Shown: piece by piece, positions 1 through 8,736 of the stretch
How the letters are laid out: each line of letters starts with the position of its first letter
Numbering within the stretch: position 1 is the stretch's first letter
DNA from: a virus
Taxonomy: Duplodnaviria; Heunggongvirae; Uroviricota; Caudoviricetes
DNA length: 8,736 bases
Virus record (IMG/VR): IMGVR_UViG_2778261227_000012
Direction: 5' to 3' (one strand)
The notes under the pieces: generated by a model
Database searches by the model: none
Told to the model about the DNA's origin: nothing
The model's input: the letters and a program-made list of their open reading frames with translations, nothing else
Made by a program: the position numbers and the translations under genes

Positions 1-29
1 GTACTTTCACCGCCTGATTTCATTACTGC

Positions 30-51
30 AAATGCCCCTGCGGGGGCATTT
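30..51 (+). terminator. Candidate stem-loop (9-bp perfect inverted repeat AAATGCCCC/GGGGCATTT, 4-nt loop) followed by a weak T-rich tract; possible terminator of an upstream gene outside the window
   Basis: Inverted repeat read directly at 30-38 and 43-51; the T-tract is short (TTTAT), so the terminator call is weak. Confidence 0.3.
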
Positions 52-145
52 ATGGAAACGTAATTAACTCAATAATCACCGGATGGTGAGAGCTTCCTTT
101 TAGCAGAATTCAGCGCGGTGCAGCGCATATAAAGTGGAGAACGAA

Positions 146-682
146 ATGTCATTTATTAAAACTTTTTCCGGGAAGCATTTTTATTATGACAAGATAAATA
201 AAGACGACATCGTGATTAACGATATCGCAGTTTCCCTTTCAAATATCTGTCGCTTTGCAGGACATCTTTCACACTTCTACAGCGTCGCCCAGCATGCGGT
301 GCTTTGCAGCCAGCTGGTACCGCAGGAATTTGCTTTTGAAGCGTTAATGCATGATGCAACAGAAGCATATTGCCAGGACATCCCCGCTCCACTGAAACGC
401 CTTCTTCCTGACTATAAACGGATGGAAGAAAAAATAGATGCCGTAATCCGTGAGAAATACGGGTTACCCCAGGTTATGAGCACGCCTGTGAAATATGCCG
501 ATCTCATCATGCTGGCAACCGAACGCCGCGATCTCGGGCTTGATGATGGCTCTTTCTGGCCTGTACTGGAAGGCATCCCGGCAACAGAGATGTTCAACGT
601 GATTCCACTGGCACCGGGCCATGCCTACGGGATGTTTATGGAACGTTTTAACGAGTTATCGGAGTTACGCAAATGCGCATGA
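146..682 (+). CDS. HD-domain metal-dependent phosphohydrolase (YfdR-like 5'-deoxynucleotidase family), prophage early-region gene
   Basis: ORF track 134..682; I place the start at ATG 146 (GGAGA 6 nt upstream) rather than GTG 134. Product contains an H...HD motif (AGHLSH...LMHDATEAY) typical of the HD phosphohydrolase superfamily. Named by motif and recollection, not by search. Confidence 0.6.
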   Translation: MSFIKTFSGKHFYYDKINKDDIVINDIAVSLSNICRFAGHLSHFYSVAQHAVLCSQLVPQEFAFEALMHDATEAYCQDIPAPLKRLLPDYKRMEEKIDAVIREKYGLPQVMSTPVKYADLIMLATERRDLGLDDGSFWPVLEGIPATEMFNVIPLAPGHAYGMFMERFNELSELRKCA

Positions 683-1035
683 ATGTTTTCGAAATGGAAG
701 GGTTTCTTCGTGGGAGATGTGTACCGCGAGATCTGAAAGTGAATGAAACAGATGCTGAATACCTGGTACGTAAATTCGATGCGCTTGAAGCTAAATGTGC
801 AGCACTGGAAAACAAAGTAATACCAGTGTCAGCTGAACTGCCGCCAGCAAATGAAAGTGTTCTGTTATTTGATGCTAATGGAGAAGGCTGGCTGATTGGC
901 TGGCGTTCTCTCTGGTACACATGGGGGCAAAAAGAAACCGGAGAATGGCAGTGGACATTTCAGGTCGGGGACCTTGAAAACGTCAATATCACTCACTGGG
1001 CAGTAATGCCGAAAGCACCAGAGACTAAGAAATGA
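673..1035 (+). CDS. Hypothetical prophage protein (YfdS-like, 120 aa), Trp-rich C-terminus
   Basis: ORF with GGAG 8 nt upstream of ATG 673; overlaps the stop of the preceding gene by 10 nt (translational coupling); no recognisable catalytic motif. Confidence 0.45.
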   Translation: MRMNVFEMEGFLRGRCVPRDLKVNETDAEYLVRKFDALEAKCAALENKVIPVSAELPPANESVLLFDANGEGWLIGWRSLWYTWGQKETGEWQWTFQVGDLENVNITHWAVMPKAPETKK

Positions 1036-1247
1036 GCGTGATAAAAACTCATACAGGAATTGTTATCACCCGAGACGGTGAAAAGCGGATGAAATTACAT
1101 TCCACTGAAACGTCCTGGGTTGCCGGACGTTGTGAATCCTACGACAAAAAGACTGGTTACCGTTGGGGTGCACCTAACATGCGTCGCCGTCTGCTACTGG
1201 ACAGCATCAGGCCAATAAAACAGGTAGCAACCAGGGAACAAAATTAA
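1032..1247 (+). CDS. Small hypothetical prophage protein (71 aa)
   Basis: ATGA start/stop overlap with the upstream ORF (1032-1035) suggests coupling in the same operon; basic small protein, function unknown. Confidence 0.35.
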   Translation: MSVIKTHTGIVITRDGEKRMKLHSTETSWVAGRCESYDKKTGYRWGAPNMRRRLLLDSIRPIKQVATREQN

Positions 1248-1294
1248 TTATCAGGACTGGAATTTGATATTACTGCCCGTGTGCAGCGGGCTAA

Positions 1295-1513
1295 GTGGAG
1301 AAACATATGCTGAACCTCGATTGTGTTCCAATCTCAACTTATTGCAAAGAAACTGGCGAAACTCCTGAAGCAATAAACAAACGTGTACAGCGCGGTGTTT
1401 GGCGTGAAGGTGTTCAGGTTTTAAAGGTTGAAGGCGTTAAGGAGAGGTGGATTGATCTTAGTGAGGTTGCAAAATGGGCCAGACAAAACTGCTCAAACTA
1501 CCGCGCGGCGTAA
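1295..1513 (+). CDS. Excisionase-like / small DNA-binding recombination directionality factor candidate
   Basis: 72-aa ORF immediately upstream of and overlapping the integrase start (ATG 1474) by 40 nt, the typical xis-int arrangement; GGAG 8 nt upstream of ATG 1295; basic, Trp-containing pattern (RVQRGVWREG...ERWIDLSEVAKW) resembles Xis/AlpA-type winged-helix proteins. Assignment by context and pattern only. Confidence 0.45.
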   Translation: MEKHMLNLDCVPISTYCKETGETPEAINKRVQRGVWREGVQVLKVEGVKERWIDLSEVAKWARQNCSNYRAA

Positions 1514-2640
1514 CAATCAGGAAACACCGCTAGGGCGAAACGATCAATATAACTTTCACCTACAAAGGAGTTAAATGTCGTGAGCCTCTTTCCAATCTGG
1601 AAGTAACACCAAAGAACATTAAATACGCCGAGCGTACACTCGGCGAAATCCATAATAAGATCGAAAGGGGAACATTCATTTATGCAGAATATTTTCCCCG
1701 TTCTGCTCGTTTGAAAATTTTTGGTAATGCTGCTGCAGGCAAAACGGTAAAGATGTACCTGGACGAATATCTTGAAATCTGCGAAACAAGAAAACTTTCA
1801 CCCTCTACGATTGGTGGCTATAAAAAATGCCGTAGTGCGTTAGCCTCACTTCACATTTGCCCTGCAAGTGAATTAACACCAGCAATCCTGAAAGCGTGGA
1901 TTCAAAGCCAGAAAACGACCTTAAAAACAATTCGCAACCAGTTATCTTTCCTGCGGTCAGCACTTGATGAAGCCGTAACCGATGGGGTACTTCAAATTAA
2001 CCCCGTATCGTTGGTAACTGCTTCGCGCTACCAAAGTGATAAGTCAGAAGCAGAAAGCAGCTATGTGGTTGATCCGCTATCACCAGCAGAAGTTGATGCA
2101 TTACTAGCAGCAGCCGGAAACAAACAATGGGAAAATCTGTTCCGGTTCGCCATACATACAGGCCTGCGTAGTTCTGAATTATGTGCCCTACGATGGCATG
2201 ATATCGACTTTGTTGGAAAAACAGCCCATGTTCAGAGCGCAAGTGTTGTCGGAGTTATCAAAGGAACAAAGACAAAAGCCGGTACCCGTAAAGTTGAACT
2301 GACTGAAGAAGCAATGTTGGCGTTGATAAACCAGAAGCCATTTACATTCATGAAGGATGCTACTGTCTTTGAAGATCCAAAGACCAATAAACCCTGGGCA
2401 AGTGCTGATGCAATTAGGAAAAAAGCATGGGTGCCAACATTGCGAAAAGCAGGTATTCGTTACAGAAACCCATATCAAACCAGGCATACATTCGCCACCA
2501 GACATATCAGCCGGGGAGCAAACCTGTTTTGGCTTGCAGCTCAAATGGGGCATAAAGGGCCTGAGATGCTTTTCAGGCACTATGGCTCATATCTGAAGGA
2601 ATATGATGGACAAACAAGCTTGAAGAAGATAACAATATAA
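1474..2640 (+). pseudogene. Tyrosine recombinase (phage integrase with N-terminal arm-DNA-binding domain) interrupted by an in-frame amber codon TAG at 1531-1533 (codon 20)
   Basis: Frame 1 from ATG 1474 reads MGQTKLLKLPRGVTIRKHR-TAG-GETINITFTYKGVKCREPLSNLEVTPKNIKYAERTLGEIHNKIERGTFIYAEYFPRSAR..., the conserved N-terminal pattern of this integrase family (KLPxGVxIR...I.I.F.Y.G.RCRE.L...N.K.AE.....I..G.F.Y...FP.S), continuous across the stop. Downstream catalytic region looks intact (LRSSELCALRWHDIDF; RHTFATRH; MGHK; RHYGSYL with Tyr). The ORF-track start at 1711 is a TTG with no upstream ATG/GTG in frame. Confidence 0.6.
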
Positions 2641-2657
2641 TCCAAGCATGAAACTAT

Positions 2658-2676
2658 TGGCCACAATTTGTGGCCA
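2658..2676. promoter_or_regulatory. Perfect 9-bp inverted repeat TGGCCACAA-T-TTGTGGCCA followed by TTTT; candidate operator or weak terminator between the integrase and the ATPase gene
   Basis: Read directly; lies 18 nt after the integrase stop and 23 nt before ATG 2699; the 9-mer TGGCCACAA recurs at 4457-4465. Confidence 0.4.
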
Positions 2677-2698
2677 TTTTACGGAGCAAGATAGAAAC

Positions 2699-4432
2699 AT
2701 GGCAAATCAAATTACCAAACTAAAAAATATAAATGTTGTGAAGTTTCGCGGACTGAAAAATATAAACATCGAGTTTGGTTCTCGCCTAACTGTTATTTGT
2801 GGTAAAAATGGCACATCTAAATCCACAATTCTTGGCATTATCGCCCAAATATTTAGCTTTACAAAGGACTTTACCAAAAACCCTGAGACTGATTTAACAC
2901 AATATAAAACATTAACAAATGGCAGCTTCAAGTCAGCTTTCAGCGAACATTTTAGGCTTTCAGAACAATTTGATGTTCCTGGTTCAATGGACGTCAAAAT
3001 TAGTGTCTATGATGGTGCATCGAACAAACATCTTGAAAAACTAACATTAGGTTTATACAGCTACAGTGACAGAGATAAATCAAGGCCTGTAGTCAGGGGA
3101 AATGATTCAATACCGGAAAAAAACCAAAGTAGAAACGTTACTCATCCTGTTATTTTTTTAAGCTTAGCACGACTTCTTCCTATTACATTAAGGACTGATT
3201 ACTCAACACGGGATGTTCAGTACATCAATGAAAATTCTGATGAAATCAGAATGATGAGTAACCAACTCTTACTAAAAAACAATGGAAGCTCAGTAACAGC
3301 AACAAAAGGTACTATCGATTCAATGGTTGTCCATGGTGACAATTATGATCACCAATCAGTATCTGTTGGTGAAGATAATGTTGGACAATTAATCCAAGCA
3401 ATTTTTTCATTTAAAAGATTGAAGGAAACTTATTCTGATTATCATGGCGGAATATTGTTAATTGATGAAGCCGATGCAGGTCTTTTCCCTGCTGCACAGT
3501 TAGAGCTAATTAATATTCTAACTAAAGCAGCAAAACAATACGATCTGCAAATAATCATGACCTCGCACTCTCCATTAATAATAGAGGATATCTATAATCG
3601 TTCAAAACAAGATAGTGATAGCTTTAAAACAATATATCTTACAGACACATATGGAGATATTAAAACAAAGAATAATCTTTCATGGACAGATATCCACGCT
3701 GATTTACATGTTGAAACTGTAAAAATTAATGATGACATTTGTCTTCCAAAGGCAAATGTATATTTTGAAGACAAAGAAGGTTTCGACTTTTTCAAACAAT
3801 TGATAACAGATCGAAAAATAAATAAAATATTAAATCCATTAGGGAATATAAATATTAGCTGCTCTGCCATGCTTGACTTAATGGCAAGAAAAATACCAGA
3901 ATTTACAGCTAAAAGCTTGATCGTCTTAGACGGTGATGTTGTTCACGACAATAGTGCTAATGCAAAAAAAGCCAAAAAAGAAAAAAACTTATGTTTGCTT
4001 CCAAGCACCTTACCTCCAGACCAAATGATTTTTGAGTTTTTATATAATTTACCACCTGATGATGCATATTGGGAAAATAAAAATAAATTTACAAAAGCTG
4101 TTTTTATGAAAACAGCTAAAGACATAATTGCAACGCTAAAGATTGGTAACGCTCCGATTGATTTAAAAATCCTTATAGATAATTATAAAAAAGTTAACAA
4201 AAACCATGGCGGGATAGTTAGAAAACTGTTTAAAGATTTTGCACATACGACTCAATTTCAGGCCCAAGTAAAAGGGCGAGTTAAAGATAACCCATATCGA
4301 TATTGGGTCGAGAAAAATCCTGTGCAATCGGATAGCTTCAAGAATGAACTAATAAAGAGTCTTAAAGTTATTATGACAAGTGGACATGGTGTCGATTCTG
4401 CTACCATCTCATCATATCTGTCAGATAACTAA
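2699..4432 (+). CDS. OLD-family (overcoming lysogenization defect-like) nuclease: N-terminal ABC/AAA_21-type ATPase fused to C-terminal TOPRIM-like domain; candidate anti-phage defence protein
   Basis: Walker A LTVICGKNGTSKSTIL; Walker B GGILLIDEADAGLF; H-loop-like IIMTSHSP; C-terminal TOPRIM-like acidic motifs VYFEDKEGFD and SLIVLDGDVV (DxD). Start chosen at ATG 2699 (GGAG 13 nt upstream; N-terminus then matches the usual IxKLxIxNFRGxK lead-in), but ATG 2648 (ORF-track start) cannot be excluded. Gene is visibly AT-rich relative to flanks. Confidence 0.65.
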   Translation: MANQITKLKNINVVKFRGLKNINIEFGSRLTVICGKNGTSKSTILGIIAQIFSFTKDFTKNPETDLTQYKTLTNGSFKSAFSEHFRLSEQFDVPGSMDVKISVYDGASNKHLEKLTLGLYSYSDRDKSRPVVRGNDSIPEKNQSRNVTHPVIFLSLARLLPITLRTDYSTRDVQYINENSDEIRMMSNQLLLKNNGSSVTATKGTIDSMVVHGDNYDHQSVSVGEDNVGQLIQAIFSFKRLKETYSDYHGGILLIDEADAGLFPAAQLELINILTKAAKQYDLQIIMTSHSPLIIEDIYNRSKQDSDSFKTIYLTDTYGDIKTKNNLSWTDIHADLHVETVKINDDICLPKANVYFEDKEGFDFFKQLITDRKINKILNPLGNINISCSAMLDLMARKIPEFTAKSLIVLDGDVVHDNSANAKKAKKEKNLCLLPSTLPPDQMIFEFLYNLPPDDAYWENKNKFTKAVFMKTAKDIIATLKIGNAPIDLKILIDNYKKVNKNHGGIVRKLFKDFAHTTQFQAQVKGRVKDNPYRYWVEKNPVQSDSFKNELIKSLKVIMTSGHGVDSATISSYLSDN

Positions 4433-4440
4433 TTGATTAA

Positions 4441-4479
4441 AAAGGGCTTTATGTGATGGCCACAAAGCCCTTTTTTTGA
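4441..4479 (+). terminator. Rho-independent terminator: 10-bp stem AAAGGGCTTT/AAAGCCCTTT, 13-nt loop, T6 tail
   Basis: Read directly; lies 9 nt after the ATPase stop; the loop contains TGGCCACAA. Confidence 0.6.
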
Positions 4480-4511
4480 TATACTTTAGATCTGACATTT
4501 AGAGGTATCAT

Positions 4512-5411
4512 ATGCGTTTTAACACCCCACTTCGCTATCCTGGCGGTAAAGGCAAGCTTGCAAATTTCATGCTTCGGCTTATTGAAGAAAATAATCTTTC
4601 GCCTATACATTATGCCGAACCATATGCTGGGGGTGCTGGTTTAGCATTGAAACTGTTACATCTAAATGCAGCTGAAAAAATCATCCTTAATGATATTAAT
4701 ATTTCTGTTTATGCTTTTTGGCACAGTGTATTAAATCATGCAGATCAATTATGTTCTTTAATTGAAAGAACTGAAGTTACAATGGATGAATGGTTTAGGC
4801 AGAAAGATATAATTAATAATCCTAAAGACCATGATCTTTTAACAATTGGTTTCTCAACCTTTTTTCTCAATAGAACAAATCGTTCTGGAATATTAAAAGG
4901 TGGAGTAATTGGCGGTAAAAATCAAGAAGGGAAATGGAAGCTTGACGCTCGCTATAATAAGAGTGATTTGATTTCTCGAATCCATAAAATATCAGAAAAT
5001 CGTCACAGAATAGATTTATATAACATGGATGCAATTGATTTCATTAAAAAAATAGTTATTCAATTGCCACAAAACTCATTAACATATTTGGATCCACCTT
5101 ATTACATAAAAGGTAAAGGTTTATATATCAACCATTATAATCATGATGATCATGTTAGGGTTGCAAAAGTCGTACAGAATAATATTAAAACACCTTGGAT
5201 TGTTTCTTACGATAACACTCCTGAGATCCAAGCTATGTATAAGACATCATCATTAGTATATGGAATAAACTACAGTGCTCAAGATCGGTACAAAGGATCT
5301 GAGGTAATGTTCTTCAGTGAACGATTGAAAATCTTTAAAACAGATGATCCAACTAAGGTAAAAGCGCCTGTATTTAAAAGAGGATGTGTTGACGACCACA
5401 TCCAGACATAA
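4512..5411 (+). CDS. Dam-family (D12 class, alpha-type) DNA N6-adenine methyltransferase
   Basis: Motifs in the order of Dam-family enzymes: RYPGGKGKL (Dam WAGGK-like), EPYAGGAG (AdoMet-binding FxGxG), FFLNRTNRSG (Dam LNRxGxNG-like), LTYLDPPYY (catalytic DPPY); AGAGG RBS 7 nt upstream of ATG; AT-rich. Confidence 0.8.
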   Translation: MRFNTPLRYPGGKGKLANFMLRLIEENNLSPIHYAEPYAGGAGLALKLLHLNAAEKIILNDINISVYAFWHSVLNHADQLCSLIERTEVTMDEWFRQKDIINNPKDHDLLTIGFSTFFLNRTNRSGILKGGVIGGKNQEGKWKLDARYNKSDLISRIHKISENRHRIDLYNMDAIDFIKKIVIQLPQNSLTYLDPPYYIKGKGLYINHYNHDDHVRVAKVVQNNIKTPWIVSYDNTPEIQAMYKTSSLVYGINYSAQDRYKGSEVMFFSERLKIFKTDDPTKVKAPVFKRGCVDDHIQT

Positions 5412-5484
5412 AAGGAGCCGCAAAAGATCCGCAGAATAAAATGGTTAGTATTAATCGTTTTATTTCAGCTAATTATAAAAATAC

Positions 5485-5516
5485 GGACTCGGGTTCAACT
5501 CCCGCCAGCTCCACCA
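5485..5516 (+). other. ssrA: 3'-terminal fragment of tmRNA (ssrA): T-arm plus acceptor 3' strand and CCA; attachment-site (att) remnant marking a mobile-element boundary
   Basis: GGACTCGGGTTCAACTCCCGCCAGCTCCACCA: T-loop TTCAACT, 3' acceptor strand CAGCTCC with the U that forms the G3:U70 alanine-identity wobble, discriminator A, CCA. Upstream sequence is AT-rich and not tmRNA-like, so this is a partial copy, not a complete gene. One T-stem position appears unpaired. Confidence 0.7.
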
Positions 5517-5563
5517 AAATTCTCCATCGGTGATTACCAGAGTCATCCGATGAAGTCCTAAGA

Positions 5564-5595
5564 GCCCGCACGGCGCAAGCCCTGCGGGCTTTTTT
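5564..5595 (+). terminator. GC-rich hairpin (GCCCGCA...TGCGGGC) followed by T6; intrinsic terminator downstream of the tmRNA 3' end
   Basis: Read directly; position matches where a native ssrA terminator would sit. Confidence 0.55.
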
Positions 5596-5649
5596 GTGCC
5601 CTCAATTTGTCCCGCGAAGTCCGAAGAAAACTAATTAAATCCGATCCTT

Positions 5650-5703
5650 TTAGGCACCTTGTTAGGCACCTCATAAAGCTTTATTGTTTTTTGAGGTGCC
5701 TAA
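5650..5703. repeat. Three copies of a 10-bp motif (TTAGGCACCT direct x2 at 5650-5659 and 5662-5671; inverted AGGTGCCTAA at 5694-5703) just upstream of the P4-type integrase start; candidate integrase/regulator binding sites
   Basis: Read directly; 19-28 nt upstream of ATG 5722. Confidence 0.35.
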
Positions 5704-5721
5704 AACTATGGAAACCCGGCA

Positions 5722-6777
5722 ATGGCAAGACAAACCAAACCTCTATCCGTTAAAGAAATAGAATCAGCCAAACCCAAGGAGGCGGACTACGTTCTCTATG
5801 ATGGCGATGGCCTTGAGCTACTCATTAAATCCAGCGGGAGTAAAATCTGGCAGTTTCGCTACATTCGCCCTGTCACCAAGAAACGAGCAAAGAAGAGCAT
5901 AGGCTCCTACCCGTCAGTTACCCTTGCCGATGCCAGAAACTACCGTGCAGAGTCCCGCTCACTACTGGCTAAACAGATCGATCCGCAGGAACATCAGCAA
6001 GAACAATTGCGCAGTTCGCTGGAAGCCAAAACCAACACTTTCCAACTCGTAGCTGAACGTTGGTGGAATGTGAAGAAAGCCAGTGTGACAGAGGACTATG
6101 CGGAAGATATCTGGCGCTCTCTTGAAAGAGACGTCTTTCCTGCGATTGGCGACGTTAGCGTTACAGATATTAAAGCTCATACACTGGTTCAGGCCGTACA
6201 ACCGGTTCAGGCCAGAGGAGCACTGGAAACTGTTCGTCGCCTGTGCCAACGTATTAATGAGGTCATGATCTATGCCCAGAACACAGGGCTGATTGATGCT
6301 GTTCCCAGCGTTAATATCGGTAAAGCCTTCGAGAAGCCTCAGAAAAAGAACATGCCCAGCATTCGACCGGATCAGCTACCTCAGTTAATGCAGACGATGC
6401 GAACAGCCAGCATTAGCCTTTCCACACGCTGCCTGTTCATGTGGCAACTTCTTACTATTACCCGCCCTGCCGAAGCGGCTGAAGCTCTCTGGGAAGAGGT
6501 AGACATAGAAGCGCGAGAGTGGAAGATTCCTGCAGCACGCATGAAAATGAACCGCGACCATACTGTTCCATTGTCAGATGAAGCAATTGCGATACTAGAG
6601 ATGATGAAGCCGTTAAGTGGAAATCGAGAATTTATCTTTCCCAGCCGCATCAAGCCAAACCAGCCGATGAACAGTCAGACCGTAAACGCATCGCTAAAAC
6701 GCGCAGGTTTTGGTGGGGTGCTCGTTTCACACGGCCTGCGATCTATCGCCAGTACAGCCCTTAATGAGCAGGGATGA
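5722..6777 (+). pseudogene. P4/CP4-57 (IntA)-type tyrosine integrase, C-terminally truncated (ends ...SHGLRSIASTALNEQG, before the catalytic tyrosine)
   Basis: N-terminus MARQTKPLSVKEIESAKPKEADYVLYDGDGLELLIKSSGSKIWQFRY is the hallmark of P4-family integrases that follow tRNA/tmRNA genes; the H-G-L-R box is present, but the ORF stops before the conserved downstream segment with the second His and active-site Tyr. No other frame continues the homology, so this is truncation or replacement, not a simple frameshift. Confidence 0.6.
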
Positions 6778-6852
6778 TGCGCCGCGCGATAAACGTACCT
6801 ATTTCCGTGAGATAAATTACATCGCCGCGGCATTTCAATATCAGAAAAAGAA

Positions 6853-7425
6853 TTACAAATCAGCTTGAGTTTGAAGTTCCTCTACAGGGTGATAACGATA
6901 AATCGTCGATATACCGATATCGTAAATAATTGCCAACTGTTTCCTGCTATAGCCATTTTTGATCAGCCTTGCTATTTGTTCATGTTGCTCTTTTGTCAGT
7001 TTCGGACGACGTCCACCAATACGCCCCTGTGCACGTGCTGCTTCAAGTCCGGCCAGTGTTCGTTCAACTATTAATTCACGCTCCATTTCCGCTAAAGCCC
7101 CCATGACGTGAAAAAAGAAACGTCCCATGGGTGTTGACGTATCAATGCTGTCTGTAAGACTACGGAAGTTAACCCCTTTTTCCCGCAGTTCCTCAATAAG
7201 AGTGATGAGGTGTTTCATGCTTCTGCCCAGCCTGTCCAGCTTCCAGACAACGAGCGTATCTCCTTCTGATAACGTTCTGAGCAGCTTTTTCAATCCCGGT
7301 CGGGCTGACTTTGTTCCGCTGATTTTATCCTCAAAAATCAGTTCACATCCTGCGCAGTTCAGTGCGTTTCGTTGTAAATCTGTATTCTGGTCATTTGTTG
7401 ACACACGAATGTAGCCAATTTGCAT
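6853..7425 (-). CDS. Serine recombinase, DNA invertase of the Hin/Gin/Pin/Cin family
   Basis: N-terminus MQIGYIRVSTNDQNTDLQRNAL with catalytic Ser in YIRVSTNDQ; conserved LVVWKLDRLGRS, GRFFFHVMGALAEMERELIVERT, C-terminal HTH (ISTIYRY). True start is the internal ATG at 7425-7423 (AAGAGGA RBS upstream on the minus strand); the 65-codon N-terminal extension in the ORF track is not family-like. Confidence 0.85.
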   Translation of the reverse strand: MQIGYIRVSTNDQNTDLQRNALNCAGCELIFEDKISGTKSARPGLKKLLRTLSEGDTLVVWKLDRLGRSMKHLITLIEELREKGVNFRSLTDSIDTSTPMGRFFFHVMGALAEMERELIVERTLAGLEAARAQGRIGGRRPKLTKEQHEQIARLIKNGYSRKQLAIIYDIGISTIYRYHPVEELQTQADL

Positions 7426-7477
7426 GAAAAATATCCTCTTTGTTTTGTTAAAAATACATAGCTGGTATAGGTGGGAG

Positions 7478-7503
7478 TTAAGACGAAAACGTTGGTTTGG
7501 GGG
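7478..7503. promoter_or_regulatory. Candidate invertase crossover site (AAACGTTGGTTT core, resembling the AAACC-NN-GGTTT core of hix/gix sites), overlapping the start of cassette 1 and lying about 55 bp upstream of the invertase start
   Basis: Sequence AGACGAAAACGTTGGTTTGGGGGAAGG; the same core recurs at the start of cassettes 2 and 3 (about 7962-7987 and 8562-8587). Half-site symmetry is imperfect; exact boundaries are uncertain. Confidence 0.3.
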
Positions 7504-7964
7504 AAGGCTCGGCGCTGCCCGTTGGTGTGCCTGTTCCGTGGCCCTCAGCCACACCACCAACGGGCTGGCTGAAATGTAACGGTGCAGCATTTTCTTCTGA
7601 AATGTATCCCAAACTGGCAAAAGCTTACCCCACCAATAAATTACCGGATTTACGGGGTGAATTTATTCGTGGCTGGGATGATGGGCGGGGAATTGATAAT
7701 AGACGCAACCTACTGTCTGCACAGTCTGACACTATTCAGAATATAGTTGGCACTTTTGGACGAACTCAGCTTTTTAAAGATGCTTTAAATTCAGGGCCAT
7801 TTAGTCAAACTGACTCTATATTATCAGTAGGCTTGCAACCAACTGAGAGTATTGAAGGATATGGCGCCTCTGTATGGACATTCGACGCCTCTCGCTCAGT
7901 TCGCACAGCATCTGAAACACGTCCTCGTAACATTGCGTTTAATTACATCGTAAGGGCGGCATAG
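7482..7964 (+). CDS. Tail-fibre C-terminal cassette 1 (phage tail collar domain + variable receptor-binding core + conserved ...ETRPRNIAFNYIVRAA end); promoterless, no ATG start
   Basis: Open in frame from 7482; conserved motifs PWPSATPPTGWLKCNGAAFSSEMYP...LPDLRGEFIRGWDDGRG (tail collar) and NIAFNYIVRAA (P2 H / T-even fibre-type C-terminus); no ATG or RBS, begins 56 nt from the divergent invertase start. Confidence 0.6.
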   Translation, partial: DENVGLGEGSALPVGVPVPWPSATPPTGWLKCNGAAFSSEMYPKLAKAYPTNKLPDLRGEFIRGWDDGRGIDNRRNLLSAQSDTIQNIVGTFGRTQLFKDALNSGPFSQTDSILSVGLQPTESIEGYGASVWTFDASRSVRTASETRPRNIAFNYIVRAA

Positions 7965-8565
7965 AAACGTTGGTTTGGGGGAAGGCTCTGCACTGCCCGT
8001 TGGTGTGCCTGTTCCGTGGCCCTCAGCCACACCGCCAACAGGGTGGCTGAAATGTAACGGCGCAGCATTTTCTTCTGAAATGTACCCCAATCTGGCACAG
8101 GCTTACCCCACGAATAAATTACCGGATTTACGCGGTGAATTTATCCGTGGCTGGGATGACGGACGTGGCGTGGATGCGTGGCGAACATTACTGAGTGCTC
8201 AGGATTTTGCGTTTGAAGATCATGCTCTGGGGCTACCTACCAATCAGGGATATGCAGGTATTGAGAAAGGTAGCACTGAAAATGATGTTTATGCCGCTTT
8301 CTCTGATGGCATGCACTATACAGGGAATGTAACCAGTAGCGGTCAATGGGATGATTATTCTCAGTCAAAAATTTATATCCGTAGTGATGGTAAGCCTGTC
8401 GGAAATAATATTGAGTTAGCTAACTCAAGTGAGGCTTTGCGTTCTTCTTTGCGTACTTATAGAGCCAGTACAGGATGGTATAACCCAGGACTAAACAAAC
8501 CTAAAACAGCTACAGAAACACGTCCGCGCAACGTTGCTTTTAATTACATCGTAAGAGCCGCATGA
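7954..8565 (+). CDS. Tail-fibre C-terminal cassette 2 (same conserved collar N-block and C-terminal block, different and longer variable core); promoterless
   Basis: Open in frame from 7954, overlapping the cassette 1 stop (7962-7964) by 11 nt in another frame; conserved first ~65 codons and last ~16 codons, divergent middle. Confidence 0.6.
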   Translation, partial: GRHRNVGLGEGSALPVGVPVPWPSATPPTGWLKCNGAAFSSEMYPNLAQAYPTNKLPDLRGEFIRGWDDGRGVDAWRTLLSAQDFAFEDHALGLPTNQGYAGIEKGSTENDVYAAFSDGMHYTGNVTSSGQWDDYSQSKIYIRSDGKPVGNNIELANSSEALRSSLRTYRASTGWYNPGLNKPKTATETRPRNVAFNYIVRAA

Positions 8566-8736
8566 AAACGTTGGTTTGGGGGAAGGCTCTGCACTGCCCG
8601 TTGGTGTGCCTGTTCCGTGGCCCTCAGCCACACCGTCAACAGGGTGGCTGAAATGTAACGGCGCAGCATTTTCTTCTGAAATGTACCCCAAACTGGCACA
8701 GGCTTACCCCACCAATAAATTACCGGATTTACGGGG
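8555..8736 (+). CDS. Tail-fibre C-terminal cassette 3, partial (runs off the window end); same conserved collar N-block
   Basis: Open in frame from 8555, overlapping the cassette 2 stop (8563-8565); sequence to 8736 repeats the conserved 5' block and mixes variants seen in copies 1 and 2. Confidence 0.55.

What the first reader, a model, noticed from the sequence alone, without database searches (positions are those of the whole stretch)
7478..7503. Candidate crossover site with AAACGTTGGTTT core at each cassette start, overlapping the invertase upstream region
Hin/Gin-family sites are 26 bp with 12-bp imperfect inverted half-sites around a 2-bp core, typically ...AAACC-NN-GGTTT.... Each cassette begins with (A)GAAAACGTTGGTTTGGGGGAAGG, which has the AAAC..GGTTT arms. 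The first copy lies within the short interval before the divergent invertase start, where an invertase promoter and a recombination site would both be expected to sit, as at gin and gixR in Mu. Symmetry is weak, so boundaries are uncertain.
Basis: partly seen in the sequence, partly recalled or inferred. Interest (0 to 1): 0.5.

Follow-up and report, generated by a model that had tools for sequence, protein, structure and literature searches.

The report
Tail-fibre invertase crossover sites (pix/mix type)
The flagged sequence is very probably a genuine recombination site where a phage-encoded DNA invertase swaps alternative tail-fibre tips, but it is an ordinary new example of a switch known since the 1980s in Mu, P1, e14 and p15B.

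Summary
AAACGTTGGTTT occurs exactly three times, once at each cassette start. The first copy lies 54 bp upstream of a divergent 190-aa serine invertase, which is 82% identical to PinE.

The correct 26-bp register is 7480-7505 (AAGACGAAAACG TT GGTTTGGGGGAA, central TT at 7492-7493). Further copies lie at 7958-7983 and 8559-8584.

The site matches e14 pixR at 19 of 26 positions. It matches a crossover site published for E. coli EC958 prophage Phi2 at 22 of 26.

Seven clonal mouse E. coli genomes carry the same prophage insertion, the identical outer site and a 99%-identical invertase, yet show four cassette orders. Inverting one isomer in silico at the TT reproduces two other isomers with 0 mismatches over 10.8 kb. 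The junctions map to a 22-bp interval containing the core.

The element is the right end of a Mu-like transposable prophage inserted into an integrase gene. It carries a Min-type multi-cassette segment.

All three sites in the window are direct repeats. The inverted partner lies off this 8.7-kb contig, so activity in this strain is inferred. No invertase promoter overlapping the site was found.

This is a new member of a known kind, of low interest.

The parts
7480..7505 (+). Crossover site 1: AAGACGAAAACG TT GGTTTGGGGGAA. This is the invertase-proximal, fixed outer boundary of the invertible region. Its position matches pixR and gixR.
   Evidence: It is the top weight-matrix hit at 24.0 bits. 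It matches pixR at 19 of 26, the EC958 Phi2 3' site at 22 of 26, and the outer site of a P1/p15B-like plasmid at 25 of 26. The identical site with its identical 18-nt upstream flank borders different cassettes in 10 other genomes.
7492..7493 (+). Central dinucleotide TT, the inferred point of the staggered cut and strand exchange.
   Evidence: TT is the central pair in the aligned e14 and P1 sites. It is TT in the 65 tail-fibre-region sites surveyed. In-silico inversion at this position reproduces natural isomers exactly. The junction interval is 7491|7492 to 7513|7514. Cleavage itself is inferred from knowledge of the family.
7958..7983 (+). Crossover site 2: GGCATAGAAACG TT GGTTTGGGGGAA. Its left half overlaps the stop codon of cassette 1.
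   Evidence: It scores 15.4 bits. The cassette that follows the 155-aa cassette differs between genomes: the 196-aa cassette here and in L008, the 167-aa cassette in L007, L011 and L012.
8559..8584 (+). Crossover site 3: CGCATGAAAACG TT GGTTTGGGGGAA. Its left half overlaps the stop codon of cassette 2.
   Evidence: It scores 22.4 bits. The same left half travels with the 196-aa cassette in L008, L011 and L013.
6853..7425 (-). Serine DNA invertase gene, 190 aa, with catalytic Ser9 in YIRVSTNDQ.
   Evidence: Pfam Resolvase (E 1.7e-51) plus HTH_7. Identity is 82% to PinE, 72% to Gin, 74% to Cin and 96% to the invertase of a P1/p15B-like plasmid. The best PDB matches are the Gin structures 4m6f and 3uj3. 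The exact protein is listed in 1817 blocks of the assembly collection.
7336..7407 (-). Stretch homologous to the recombinational (Fis) enhancer, inside the 5' end of the invertase gene. Fis-consensus-like 15-mers lie at 7389-7403 and 7341-7355, 48 bp apart.
   Evidence: The P1 record annotates the Cin enhancer at cin nt 19-90. The same nucleotides of the window's gene are 81% identical to cin. The two 15-mers fall at nt 23-37 and 71-85 in the window, pinE, gin and cin alike. Function is inferred, not tested.
7426..7479 (-). 54-bp spacer between site 1 and the invertase ATG, with Shine-Dalgarno AAGAGG at 7435-7440.
   Evidence: The spacer length is identical in e14 and Mu, and the alignment has no gaps. 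No consensus promoter was found.
7497..7964 (+). Silent tail-fibre C-terminal cassette 1 (155 aa). It has no promoter of its own. An in-frame TAA lies at 7479-7481 just upstream.
   Evidence: PF07484 Collar. The same cassette is fused to the constant tail-fibre part in L008, L010 and L013.
7975..8565 (+). Silent cassette 2 (196 aa).
   Evidence: PF07484 Collar. It is present in L008, L011 and L013 in either orientation.
8576..8736 (+). Silent cassette 3, only the conserved 5' part, cut by the contig end. It corresponds to the 158-aa cassette of L008.
   Evidence: Window 7486-8736 aligns to L008 7236-8486 at 98.6%. The window is the whole contig NLUL01000064.1.
6775..6852 (-). Right end of the Mu-like transposable prophage that carries the inversion system. 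It ends in ...CGTTTATCGCGCGGCGCATCA.
   Evidence: Eleven elements end at the same CA next to unrelated host DNA. Within the compared end sequence, 17 of 21 terminal bases match Mu's right end. A complete copy encodes a DDE transposase, an ExeA-family protein annotated next to it, Gam, Mor and a Mu-type tail module.

Best explanation
**What it is.** Positions 7480-7505, with copies at 7958-7983 and 8559-8584, are 26-bp crossover sites of a Din-family (Pin/Min-type) serine DNA invertase encoded next door at 6853-7425 (-). The system sits at the right end of a Mu-like transposable prophage. It is a multi-cassette version of the Mu G segment.

**Layout.** A tail-fibre gene carries one site (TTGTCAAAAACC TT GGTTTGGGGGAA) at the border between its constant N-terminal part and its variable tip. 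That gene is not on this contig. Each promoterless alternative tip begins with the same right half-site.

**Mechanism (inferred from the family).**
1. Invertase dimers bind two sites that lie in inverted orientation.
2. With Fis bound to the enhancer inside the invertase gene, they form an invertasome on supercoiled DNA.
3. Both sites are cut with a 2-nt stagger at the central TT.
4. One half of the complex rotates 180 degrees and the ends are religated.
5. This inverts the DNA in between and places a different tip in frame behind the constant part (...K N L G L G E G...).

**Role of site 1.** Site 1 is the fixed outer boundary next to the invertase. Its left half never moves. Its right half leaves with the cassette.

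**Shown versus inferred.** Shown here: site homology, invertase family membership, natural isomers, and junctions mapped to about 22 bp. Inferred: binding, cleavage at TT, Fis dependence, and activity in this particular strain.
For: 1. **Site homology.** The sites are the three best weight-matrix hits in the window, at 24.0, 22.4 and 15.4 bits against a shuffle maximum of 11.1. Site 1 aligns without gaps to pixR and gixR, with the same 54-bp distance to the invertase ATG.
2. **Enzyme.** The invertase has Resolvase and HTH_7 domains. It is 82% identical to PinE, and its best PDB matches are Gin structures.
3. **Extent of the site.** In L004 the cassette behind the outer site is unrelated (gp53-like). 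Only GGTTTGGGAGAA is kept there, which marks the end of the right half-site.
4. **Same cassette in all three contexts.** The window's 155-aa cassette occurs behind the constant, invertase-proximal and stop-codon left halves in 7 genomes. Its sequence is unchanged from TT onward.
5. **Clonal isomers.** Seven clonal genomes have 0 mismatches in 8.1 kb of flanks, the same insertion, the identical outer site and a 188/190-identical invertase. They show 4 cassette orders.
6. **In-silico inversion.** A single inversion at TT between a + site and the outer site converts L029 into L025, and likewise L029 into L027, with 0 mismatches over 10,763 bp. Offsets that still give 0 mismatches intersect at -1 to +21. 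Crossovers placed deeper in the roughly 170-bp conserved region give 6-32 mismatches.
7. **Published precedent.** An inversion observed in PacBio reads of EC958 has GAGAGATAAACGTT GGTTTGGGGGAA as one of its crossover sites (PMC4134206). The same 26-mer is present in L014.
8. **Enhancer.** An enhancer-like stretch with two Fis-like 15-mers 48 bp apart lies inside the span that P1 annotates as the Cin enhancer.
Against: - All three sites in the window are in direct orientation. The inverted partner and the expressed tail-fibre gene are off the contig, because the window is the whole 8736-bp contig. Inversion in this strain is therefore not shown.
- The left half-sites are poor: 5 of 12 positions symmetric, against 8-9 for pixL, pixR and cixL.
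- Sequence comparison cannot place the exchange more finely than about 22 bp.
- It also cannot exclude that a different invertase acts in trans.
- Among non-clonal genomes some cassette 5' regions look mosaic (cluster 17). Homologous exchange in the conserved region therefore also happens over evolutionary time.
- No promoter for the invertase was detected.
Confidence: 0.88

Rival explanations
1. The motif is only the first bases of a duplicated cassette 5' region. Cassette shuffling would then come from RecA-dependent homologous recombination anywhere in the roughly 170-230-bp inverted repeats, not from site-specific exchange at a 26-bp site.
For: The sites lie at the edge of a 231-bp repeat with 74-94% identity. 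Some non-clonal genomes have mosaic cassette 5' regions (cluster 17).
Against: - In the clonal set, every inferred inversion left all cassette-specific SNPs of the conserved region with their cassette. The junctions all fall between -1 and +21 of the core.
- In L004 the outer site keeps only the 12-bp right half in front of an unrelated cassette.
- A dedicated invertase and an enhancer-like stretch are adjacent.
- The site matches sites of systems with no long repeats, such as Mu and EC958 Phi4.
Confidence: 0.04
2. The sites are real in kind but inert in this genome. The prophage copy would be truncated or lack an inverted partner, so the window holds a frozen relic.
For: Only direct repeats are visible and the contig ends at 8736. 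Defective copies exist elsewhere: L001 and L010 have frameshifted or partial cassettes.
Against: - The invertase ORF is intact and identical to a protein found in 1817 collection blocks.
- The site, spacer and enhancer-like stretch are intact.
- The visible array (155-196-158) is collinear at 98.6% with the complete system of L008.
- A contig break inside the repeated cassette 5' region is what short-read assembly of an intact multi-copy array would give.
Confidence: 0.1
3. The site lies in the first reader's register (7478-7503), with CG as the central dinucleotide.
For: Internal symmetry does not discriminate between registers.
Against: - Symmetry in that register is 3 of 12, against 5 of 12 at 7480-7505.
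- The weight-matrix optimum is at 7480.
- The gap-free alignment to pixR and gixR puts TT opposite their central TT and TC.
- The lower bound of the junction interval is immediately 5' of TT.
Confidence: 0.02
4. The first copy serves mainly as an operator or promoter element of the invertase gene rather than as a recombination site.
For: It lies 54 bp upstream of the ATG. In Mu a TTTCCT-16-GATAAT match overlaps gixR.
Against: No consensus promoter is found in the window's interval. The same sequence recurs at internal cassette borders where there is no gene to regulate. The outer site is a recombination partner in clonal isomers. A regulatory side role is not excluded.
Confidence: 0.03

Closest known systems
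e14 Pin/pix system of E. coli K-12 (pixR next to pinE)
   Same: - pixR TTTTCATAAACG TT GGTTTGGGAGAA matches site 1 at 19 of 26, including the unusual AAACG next to the core.
- The divergent layout and the 54-bp distance to the invertase ATG are the same.
- The invertase is 82% identical.
- In both systems the expressed-gene site has AAACC and the outer site AAACG.
   Different: e14 has two sites and one invertible segment with two tail-fibre-tip/assembly gene pairs. The present family has 4-7 sites and one shared assembly gene. e14 is a lambdoid remnant at icd, not a transposable phage.
Min/mix multiple-inversion system of plasmid p15B and P1-like phage-plasmids
   Same: The architecture is the same: several collar-domain cassettes, each starting with a site, and one assembly gene. 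In plasmid pWP5-S18-ESBL-08_2 (L002) there are 6 sites, the outer site matches at 25 of 26, and the invertase is 96% identical. That p15B has a cluster of overlapping invertible segments is taken from citations in PMC5903667 and PMC6906374.
   Different: The carrier here is a Mu-like transposable prophage rather than a P1-type plasmid prophage. The p15B sequence and the original papers were not available to me. Identity to the published mix sites is therefore inferred through a p15B-like plasmid.
Mu Gin/gix G-segment
   Same: The position in the genome is the same: last module before the right end, with S-type tail fibre, then the segment, then the invertase. The 54-bp site-to-ATG distance is the same. 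The invertase is 72% identical. The enhancer-like 15-mers fall at the same gene positions.
   Different: Mu has two sites with central TC/GA, two complete S/U gene sets, and com/mom after gin. Here the core is TT, there are many chaperone-less cassettes, and only 78 bp separate the invertase stop from the phage end. Site identity is only 16 of 26.
E. coli EC958 (ST131) prophage Phi2 crossover sites
   Same: The Phi2 3' site GAGAGATAAACGTT GGTTTGGGGGAA shares the core, the right half and AAACG with site 1 (22 of 26). The inversion was seen directly as alternative PacBio contigs (PMC4134206). The invertase of the matching locus L014 is 84% identical.
   Different: The paper describes Phi2 as a two-site, 2067-bp segment. 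Its outer left half differs (GAGAGAT against AAGACGA).
Salmonella Hin/hix and P1 Cin/cix
   Same: The 12-2-12 site plan with ...AAACC NN GGTTT... is shared, as is a Fis enhancer inside or next to the recombinase gene. cixL CAATCCTAAACC TT GGTTTAAGAGAA matches at 17 of 26. The invertase is 74% identical to Cin.
   Different: Hin flips a promoter, not a gene tip. In P1 the cin gene reads towards cixL instead of away from it. The hix sequences were recalled from memory and not tested here.

Membership tests
Din/Hin-family invertase crossover site (hix/gix/cix/pix/mix) | A 26-bp site made of two 12-bp imperfect inverted half-sites (...AAAC[C/G] and [C/G]GTTT...) around a 2-bp core. | tested here: met
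   Site 1 is AAGACGAAAACG TT GGTTTGGGGGAA. The weight matrix of 10 known sites gives 24.0 bits against a shuffle maximum of 11.1. The Sandmeier consensus quoted in PMC4134206 allows C/G at both inner positions. Symmetry is weak at 5 of 12, because the left half is degenerate. The published Phi2 3' site is 4 of 12 and still recombines.
Din/Hin-family invertase crossover site (hix/gix/cix/pix/mix) | A cognate serine invertase of the Hin/Gin/Cin/Pin group is encoded next to the site. | tested here: met
   The 190-aa protein has Resolvase and HTH_7 domains and Ser9. Identity to PinE, Cin and Gin is 82%, 74% and 72%. Gin structures are the top PDB hits.
Din/Hin-family invertase crossover site (hix/gix/cix/pix/mix) | Partner sites in inverted orientation flank the invertible DNA. 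| tested here: inconclusive
   Not met within the window: all three copies are on the + strand and the contig ends at 8736. Met in every complete relative: the tail-fibre-region sites of the related loci (L001, L002, L004-L013), and L025-L031.
Din/Hin-family invertase crossover site (hix/gix/cix/pix/mix) | Recombining sites have an identical central dinucleotide. | tested here: met
   The core is TT in all three window sites and in the other 62 tail-fibre-region sites surveyed.
Din/Hin-family invertase crossover site (hix/gix/cix/pix/mix) | Strand exchange takes place at the site. | tested here: met
   This holds to 22-bp resolution and by sequence comparison only. In-silico inversion at TT reproduces natural clonal isomers with 0 mismatches. 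The permitted offsets intersect at -1 to +21. Across genomes the interval is 19 bp, 7492-7510. Cleavage chemistry cannot be tested with these tools.
Din/Hin-family invertase crossover site (hix/gix/cix/pix/mix) | A Fis-bound recombinational enhancer lies in cis. | tested here: inconclusive
   At sequence level there is a homologue of the enhancer annotated in P1 (cin nt 19-90). Two Fis-consensus-like 15-mers lie 48 bp apart at conserved positions. The degenerate consensus, recalled from memory, is expected about once per 128 nt by chance. Fis binding and dependence are not testable here.
Min-type multiple-inversion (shufflon-like) tail-fibre system | More than two sites, giving overlapping invertible segments and more than two alternative tips. 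| tested here: met
   Three sites are visible in the window. Close relatives have 2 to 6 sites, and most have 4 or more. Four isomers occur in one clonal lineage.
Mu-like transposable phage (carrier element) | Mu-type ends, a DDE transposase with a MuB-like partner, and insertion at many unrelated chromosomal positions. | tested here: met
   Within the compared end sequence, 17 of 21 terminal bases match Mu's right end. Eleven copies end at the same CA next to unrelated host DNA. A complete copy encodes a DDE transposase, an ExeA-family protein annotated next to it, Gam and Mor. A 5-bp target duplication could not be checked, because the left end is not on the contig.

The most novel reading that the evidence does not exclude
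The Min-type cassette array may have a built-in hierarchy.
- In every genome examined, only the expressed-gene site has AAACC next to the core. All silent and outer left halves have AAACG. The same holds in e14 for pixL against pixR.
- The array carries a single tail-fibre assembly gene, which ends up antisense to the tail-fibre gene in some isomers (for example L029).

If the C/G asymmetry biases which site pairs synapse, and if only some isomers yield assembled fibres, the system would be a programmed, non-random host-range switch rather than a free shuffler. It would be spread by a transposable phage that shares this module with P1-like plasmids and P2-like prophages.
Probability: 0.1. Interest if true: 0.45.

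Novelty: new member of a known kind. Interest (0 to 1): 0.2.

Why it matters
**Annotation.** These loci are labelled only 'recombinase family protein' and 'phage tail protein' in public genomes. Yet the exact invertase is found in 1817 blocks of the assembly collection. Marking the 26-bp sites would explain contig breaks and apparent misassemblies in E. coli prophage tail regions. It would also keep silent cassettes from being read as separate genes.

**Biology.** The biology is not new. It is host-range switching by invertase-driven exchange of tail-fibre tips, as in Mu, P1, e14 and p15B.

**Small additions from this work.**
- The multi-cassette form rides on a Mu-like transposable prophage.
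- Public clonal genomes already contain four isomers, which map the exchange to the site.

Tried and rejected
1. **Cassette remnant at 6776-6850.** I first read this stretch as a remnant of a cassette 3' end, because of a 17-nt similarity (repeat D11). That was wrong. It is the Mu-like right end.
2. **Internal symmetry as a register test.** This was uninformative: 5 of 12 at two offsets.
3. **Invertase promoter over the site.** I looked for one with the built-in scan and with a relaxed scan of the window, e14 and Mu. Nothing turned up in the window or in e14. Only Mu has a match.
4. **Finding the rest of the locus.** The window is the entire contig. No complete E. coli genome carries the same integrase::prophage junction.
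5. **p15B sources.** The p15B record X62121 and the 1990 PNAS paper on Min are not held. A p15B-like plasmid served as proxy.
6. **Listing genomes with the L013 insertion.** A 'spread' listing was useless. The 'best' listing gave the clonal mouse strains instead.
7. **Weight matrix from Mu gix and P1 cixL alone.** This is too weak to separate the sites from chance: 11.8 bits against a shuffle maximum of 20.2. The result depends on including the e14 and EC958 sites.

Full report
**1. What is in the sequence**

AAACGTTGGTTT occurs exactly at 7487, 7965 and 8566, all on the + strand. Each copy opens a tail-collar-domain ORF: 7497-7964 (155 aa), 7975-8565 (196 aa), and a third cut by the end of the window. 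These ORFs are members of a 231-bp direct repeat family.

A 190-aa serine recombinase gene runs divergently from the first copy at 6853-7425 (-). It has Resolvase and HTH_7 domains.

In frame, the first cassette is closed by TAA at 7479-7481. The later cassettes begin right after the previous cassette's stop codon. They are therefore promoterless, start-less gene tips.

**2. Register of the site**

I extracted reference sites from public records:

| Site | Sequence |
|---|---|
| e14 pixR | TTTTCATAAACG TT GGTTTGGGAGAA |
| e14 pixL | CTCTCGAAAACC TT GGTTTGGGAGAA |
| Mu gix | TTATCCAAAACC TC GGTTTACAGGAA |
| P1 cixL | CAATCCTAAACC TT GGTTTAAGAGAA |

- The P1 record annotates the crossover point inside cixL.
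- The region from site to invertase gene aligns without a gap between the window, e14, Mu and two other relatives. All have 54 bp between the site and the start codon.
- That alignment fixes the window's site as 7480-7505, AAGACGAAAACG TT GGTTTGGGGGAA, with core TT at 7492-7493.
- A weight matrix from ten known sites (Mu, P1, e14, and six from EC958 Table 3, PMC4134206) ranks the three window sites first, at 24.0, 22.4 and 15.4 bits. The next hit scores -2.7, and the best of 200 dinucleotide shuffles scores 11.1.
- Without the two references that share AAACG, sites 1 and 3 still score 11.9 and 14.7, against a shuffle maximum of 12.6. With Mu and P1 alone the test has no power.
- Symmetry is weak: 5 of 12 in all three copies, against 8-9 for pixL, pixR and cixL. 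It does not identify the register by itself.

**3. The enzyme and the enhancer**

- The invertase is 82% identical to PinE, 74% to Cin, 72% to Gin, and 96% to the invertase of a P1/p15B-like plasmid.
- Its best solved relatives are the Gin structures 4m6f and 3uj3.
- P1 annotates the Cin enhancer at cin nt 19-90. The same nucleotides of the window's gene (7336-7407) are 81% identical to cin.
- Two 15-mers fitting the degenerate Fis consensus (recalled from memory) lie at nt 23-37 and 71-85, 48 bp apart. They occupy the same positions in the window, pinE, gin and cin.
- This is a sequence-level homologue only. Fis binding is inferred.

**4. The carrier element**

- Window 1-6775 is a CPS-53/KpLE1-like island ending in a P4-type integrase gene. 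In E. coli KSC64 that gene is 1242 bp long.
- At 6775 the homology switches to prophage DNA.
- Ten loci that encode the identical invertase all end at the same ...GGCGCATCA, followed by unrelated host genes. Within the compared end sequence, 17 of 21 terminal bases match Mu's right end.
- A complete copy in strain CFS3292 has a DDE transposase, an ExeA-family protein annotated next to it, Gam, Mor and a Mu-order tail module. It ends with tail fibre, cassettes and invertase.
- The window therefore shows the right end of a Mu-like transposable prophage inserted into the integrase gene, which is truncated at 351 aa.
- The window is the whole 8736-bp contig NLUL01000064.1. The expressed tail-fibre gene and any inverted partner site are not visible.

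**5. The complete system in relatives**

- In the Mu-like prophage relatives (L004-L013), the tail-fibre gene carries TTGTCAAAAACC TT GGTTTGGGGGAA between its constant part and its tip. This site has 8 of 12 symmetric positions.
- Further cassettes follow on one strand and converge with others on the opposite strand. There is a single tail-fibre assembly gene. The outer site, identical to the window's site 1, lies next to the invertase.
- L002, a P1/p15B-like plasmid, has six sites in the same plan.
- In L004 the cassette behind the outer site is unrelated (gp53-like), and only GGTTTGGGAGAA is retained. This delimits the right half-site.
- The window's array (155-196-158) is collinear at 98.6% with L008. 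There the same array is attached to the constant part, so the window looks like the whole-segment inversion isomer of L008.

**6. Junction mapping across genomes**

- The window's 155-aa cassette is found behind all three kinds of left half: constant, outer and stop-codon. This holds in seven genomes, with unchanged sequence from TT onward.
- The last context-specific base is the C or G directly 5' of TT. The first cassette-specific base is 18 nt after the core.
- That gives a 19-bp interval, 7492-7510.

**7. Junction mapping in clonal genomes**

- Seven mouse E. coli genomes carry the prophage at the same insertion point: FEA3, DEF2, DEF10, 3-72, and three isolates of strain 8178.
- They have 0 mismatches over 8.1 kb of flanks, the identical outer site, and a 188/190-identical invertase.
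- They show four cassette orders.
- Inverting L029 in silico between one + site and the outer site at TT yields L025. Doing the same with another + site yields L027. Each product has 0 mismatches over 10,763 bp.
- Offsets that still give 0 mismatches are -8 to +21 and -6 to +24.
- L027 to L026 needs two nested inversions, with ranges -1 to +39 (constant site with outer site) and -6 to +21.
- The intersection is -1 to +21, which corresponds to 7491|7492 through 7513|7514 in the window.
- Crossovers placed deeper in the conserved cassette region give 6-32 mismatches.

**8. Published precedent**

- The EC958 genome paper reports alternative PacBio contigs for three prophage tail regions and lists 26-bp crossover sites. 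The list includes Phi2 3', GAGAGATAAACGTT GGTTTGGGGGAA (PMC4134206).
- That site matches site 1 at 22 of 26. It is present in L014, whose invertase is 84% identical.
- Multi-site prophage tail inversions have also been shown in EPEC (PMC4272514).
- The Min system of p15B is cited as a cluster of overlapping invertible segments.

**9. What is not supported or not known**

- No sigma-70-like promoter is detectable between the site and the invertase gene. Mu has a TTTCCT-16-GATAAT match over gixR.
- The three window sites are direct repeats. By family knowledge these enzymes do not efficiently delete between direct sites, so nothing can invert within the window alone.
- Activity in this strain, cleavage at TT and Fis dependence are inferences.
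- Mosaic cassette 5' regions among non-clonal genomes suggest that homologous exchange also shapes these arrays over longer time.

**10. Verdict**

- The finding is correct in substance. It is a pix/mix-type crossover site next to its invertase, with boundaries shifted by 2 bp.
- It is a new member of a well-known kind, on a Mu-like carrier.
- Interest is low.

Noticed in passing
window 5722-6852: A P4-type integrase gene, 413 aa when intact in E. coli KSC64, is cut at 6775 by the right end of a Mu-like transposable prophage. This leaves a 351-aa product without its C-terminal end. The same truncated product and junction occur in another sequencing run (L020). Several other contigs stop exactly at the junction (L018, L021-L023).
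   Followed up: partly
window 2648-5411: An AAA-ATPase gene (2648-4432; PtuA, GajA and AriA-like hits) is followed by a D12 adenine methyltransferase gene (4512-5411). The methyltransferase matches PADLOC PD-Lambda-5_B at E 5e-124. This is probably a PD-Lambda-5-type defence pair in the CPS-53-like island.
   Followed up: partly
window 7491, 7969, 8570; L004-L013, L015: In every Mu-like prophage locus examined (L004-L013, L025-L028), the site inside the expressed tail-fibre gene has C next to the core (AAACC TT). All silent and outer left halves have G (AAACG TT). The same split exists between pixL and pixR of e14. Whether this biases partner choice is unknown.
   Followed up: no
L025-L031 (about 3400-4600); L005-L013: The arrays have only one tail-fibre assembly gene. 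It stays attached to one cassette and flips with it. In some isomers (for example L029, L008) it is antisense to the tail-fibre gene and cannot be co-transcribed with it.
   Followed up: no
L001 9001-12200; L002 8000-12100: Nearly the same invertase-plus-cassette module sits in three different phage backbones. It is 98% identical to the window in L001, a P2-like prophage. It is 88% identical in P1/p15B-like plasmids. The third backbone is the Mu-like prophage. The module therefore moves between phage types.
   Followed up: partly
window 8585-8736: The contig ends 152 bp into the conserved 5' region of the third cassette. This is the kind of break that short-read assemblers make in repeated or heterogeneous DNA. 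L020 likewise ends 5 bp after the outer site.
   Followed up: no
L005, L006, L011 (cassette cluster 17): Cassettes with the same variable body carry different SNP patterns in their conserved 5' regions in different, non-clonal genomes. This suggests gene conversion or homologous exchange between cassettes in addition to site-specific inversion.
   Followed up: no
window 4439-4475 and 5662-5703: Two near-perfect hairpins were reported by the repeat finder (I15: 15-nt arms, 93% complementary. I9: 16-nt arms, 94% complementary). One lies after the ATPase gene and one just upstream of the integrase gene. They may be terminators or an attachment-site feature.
   Followed up: no
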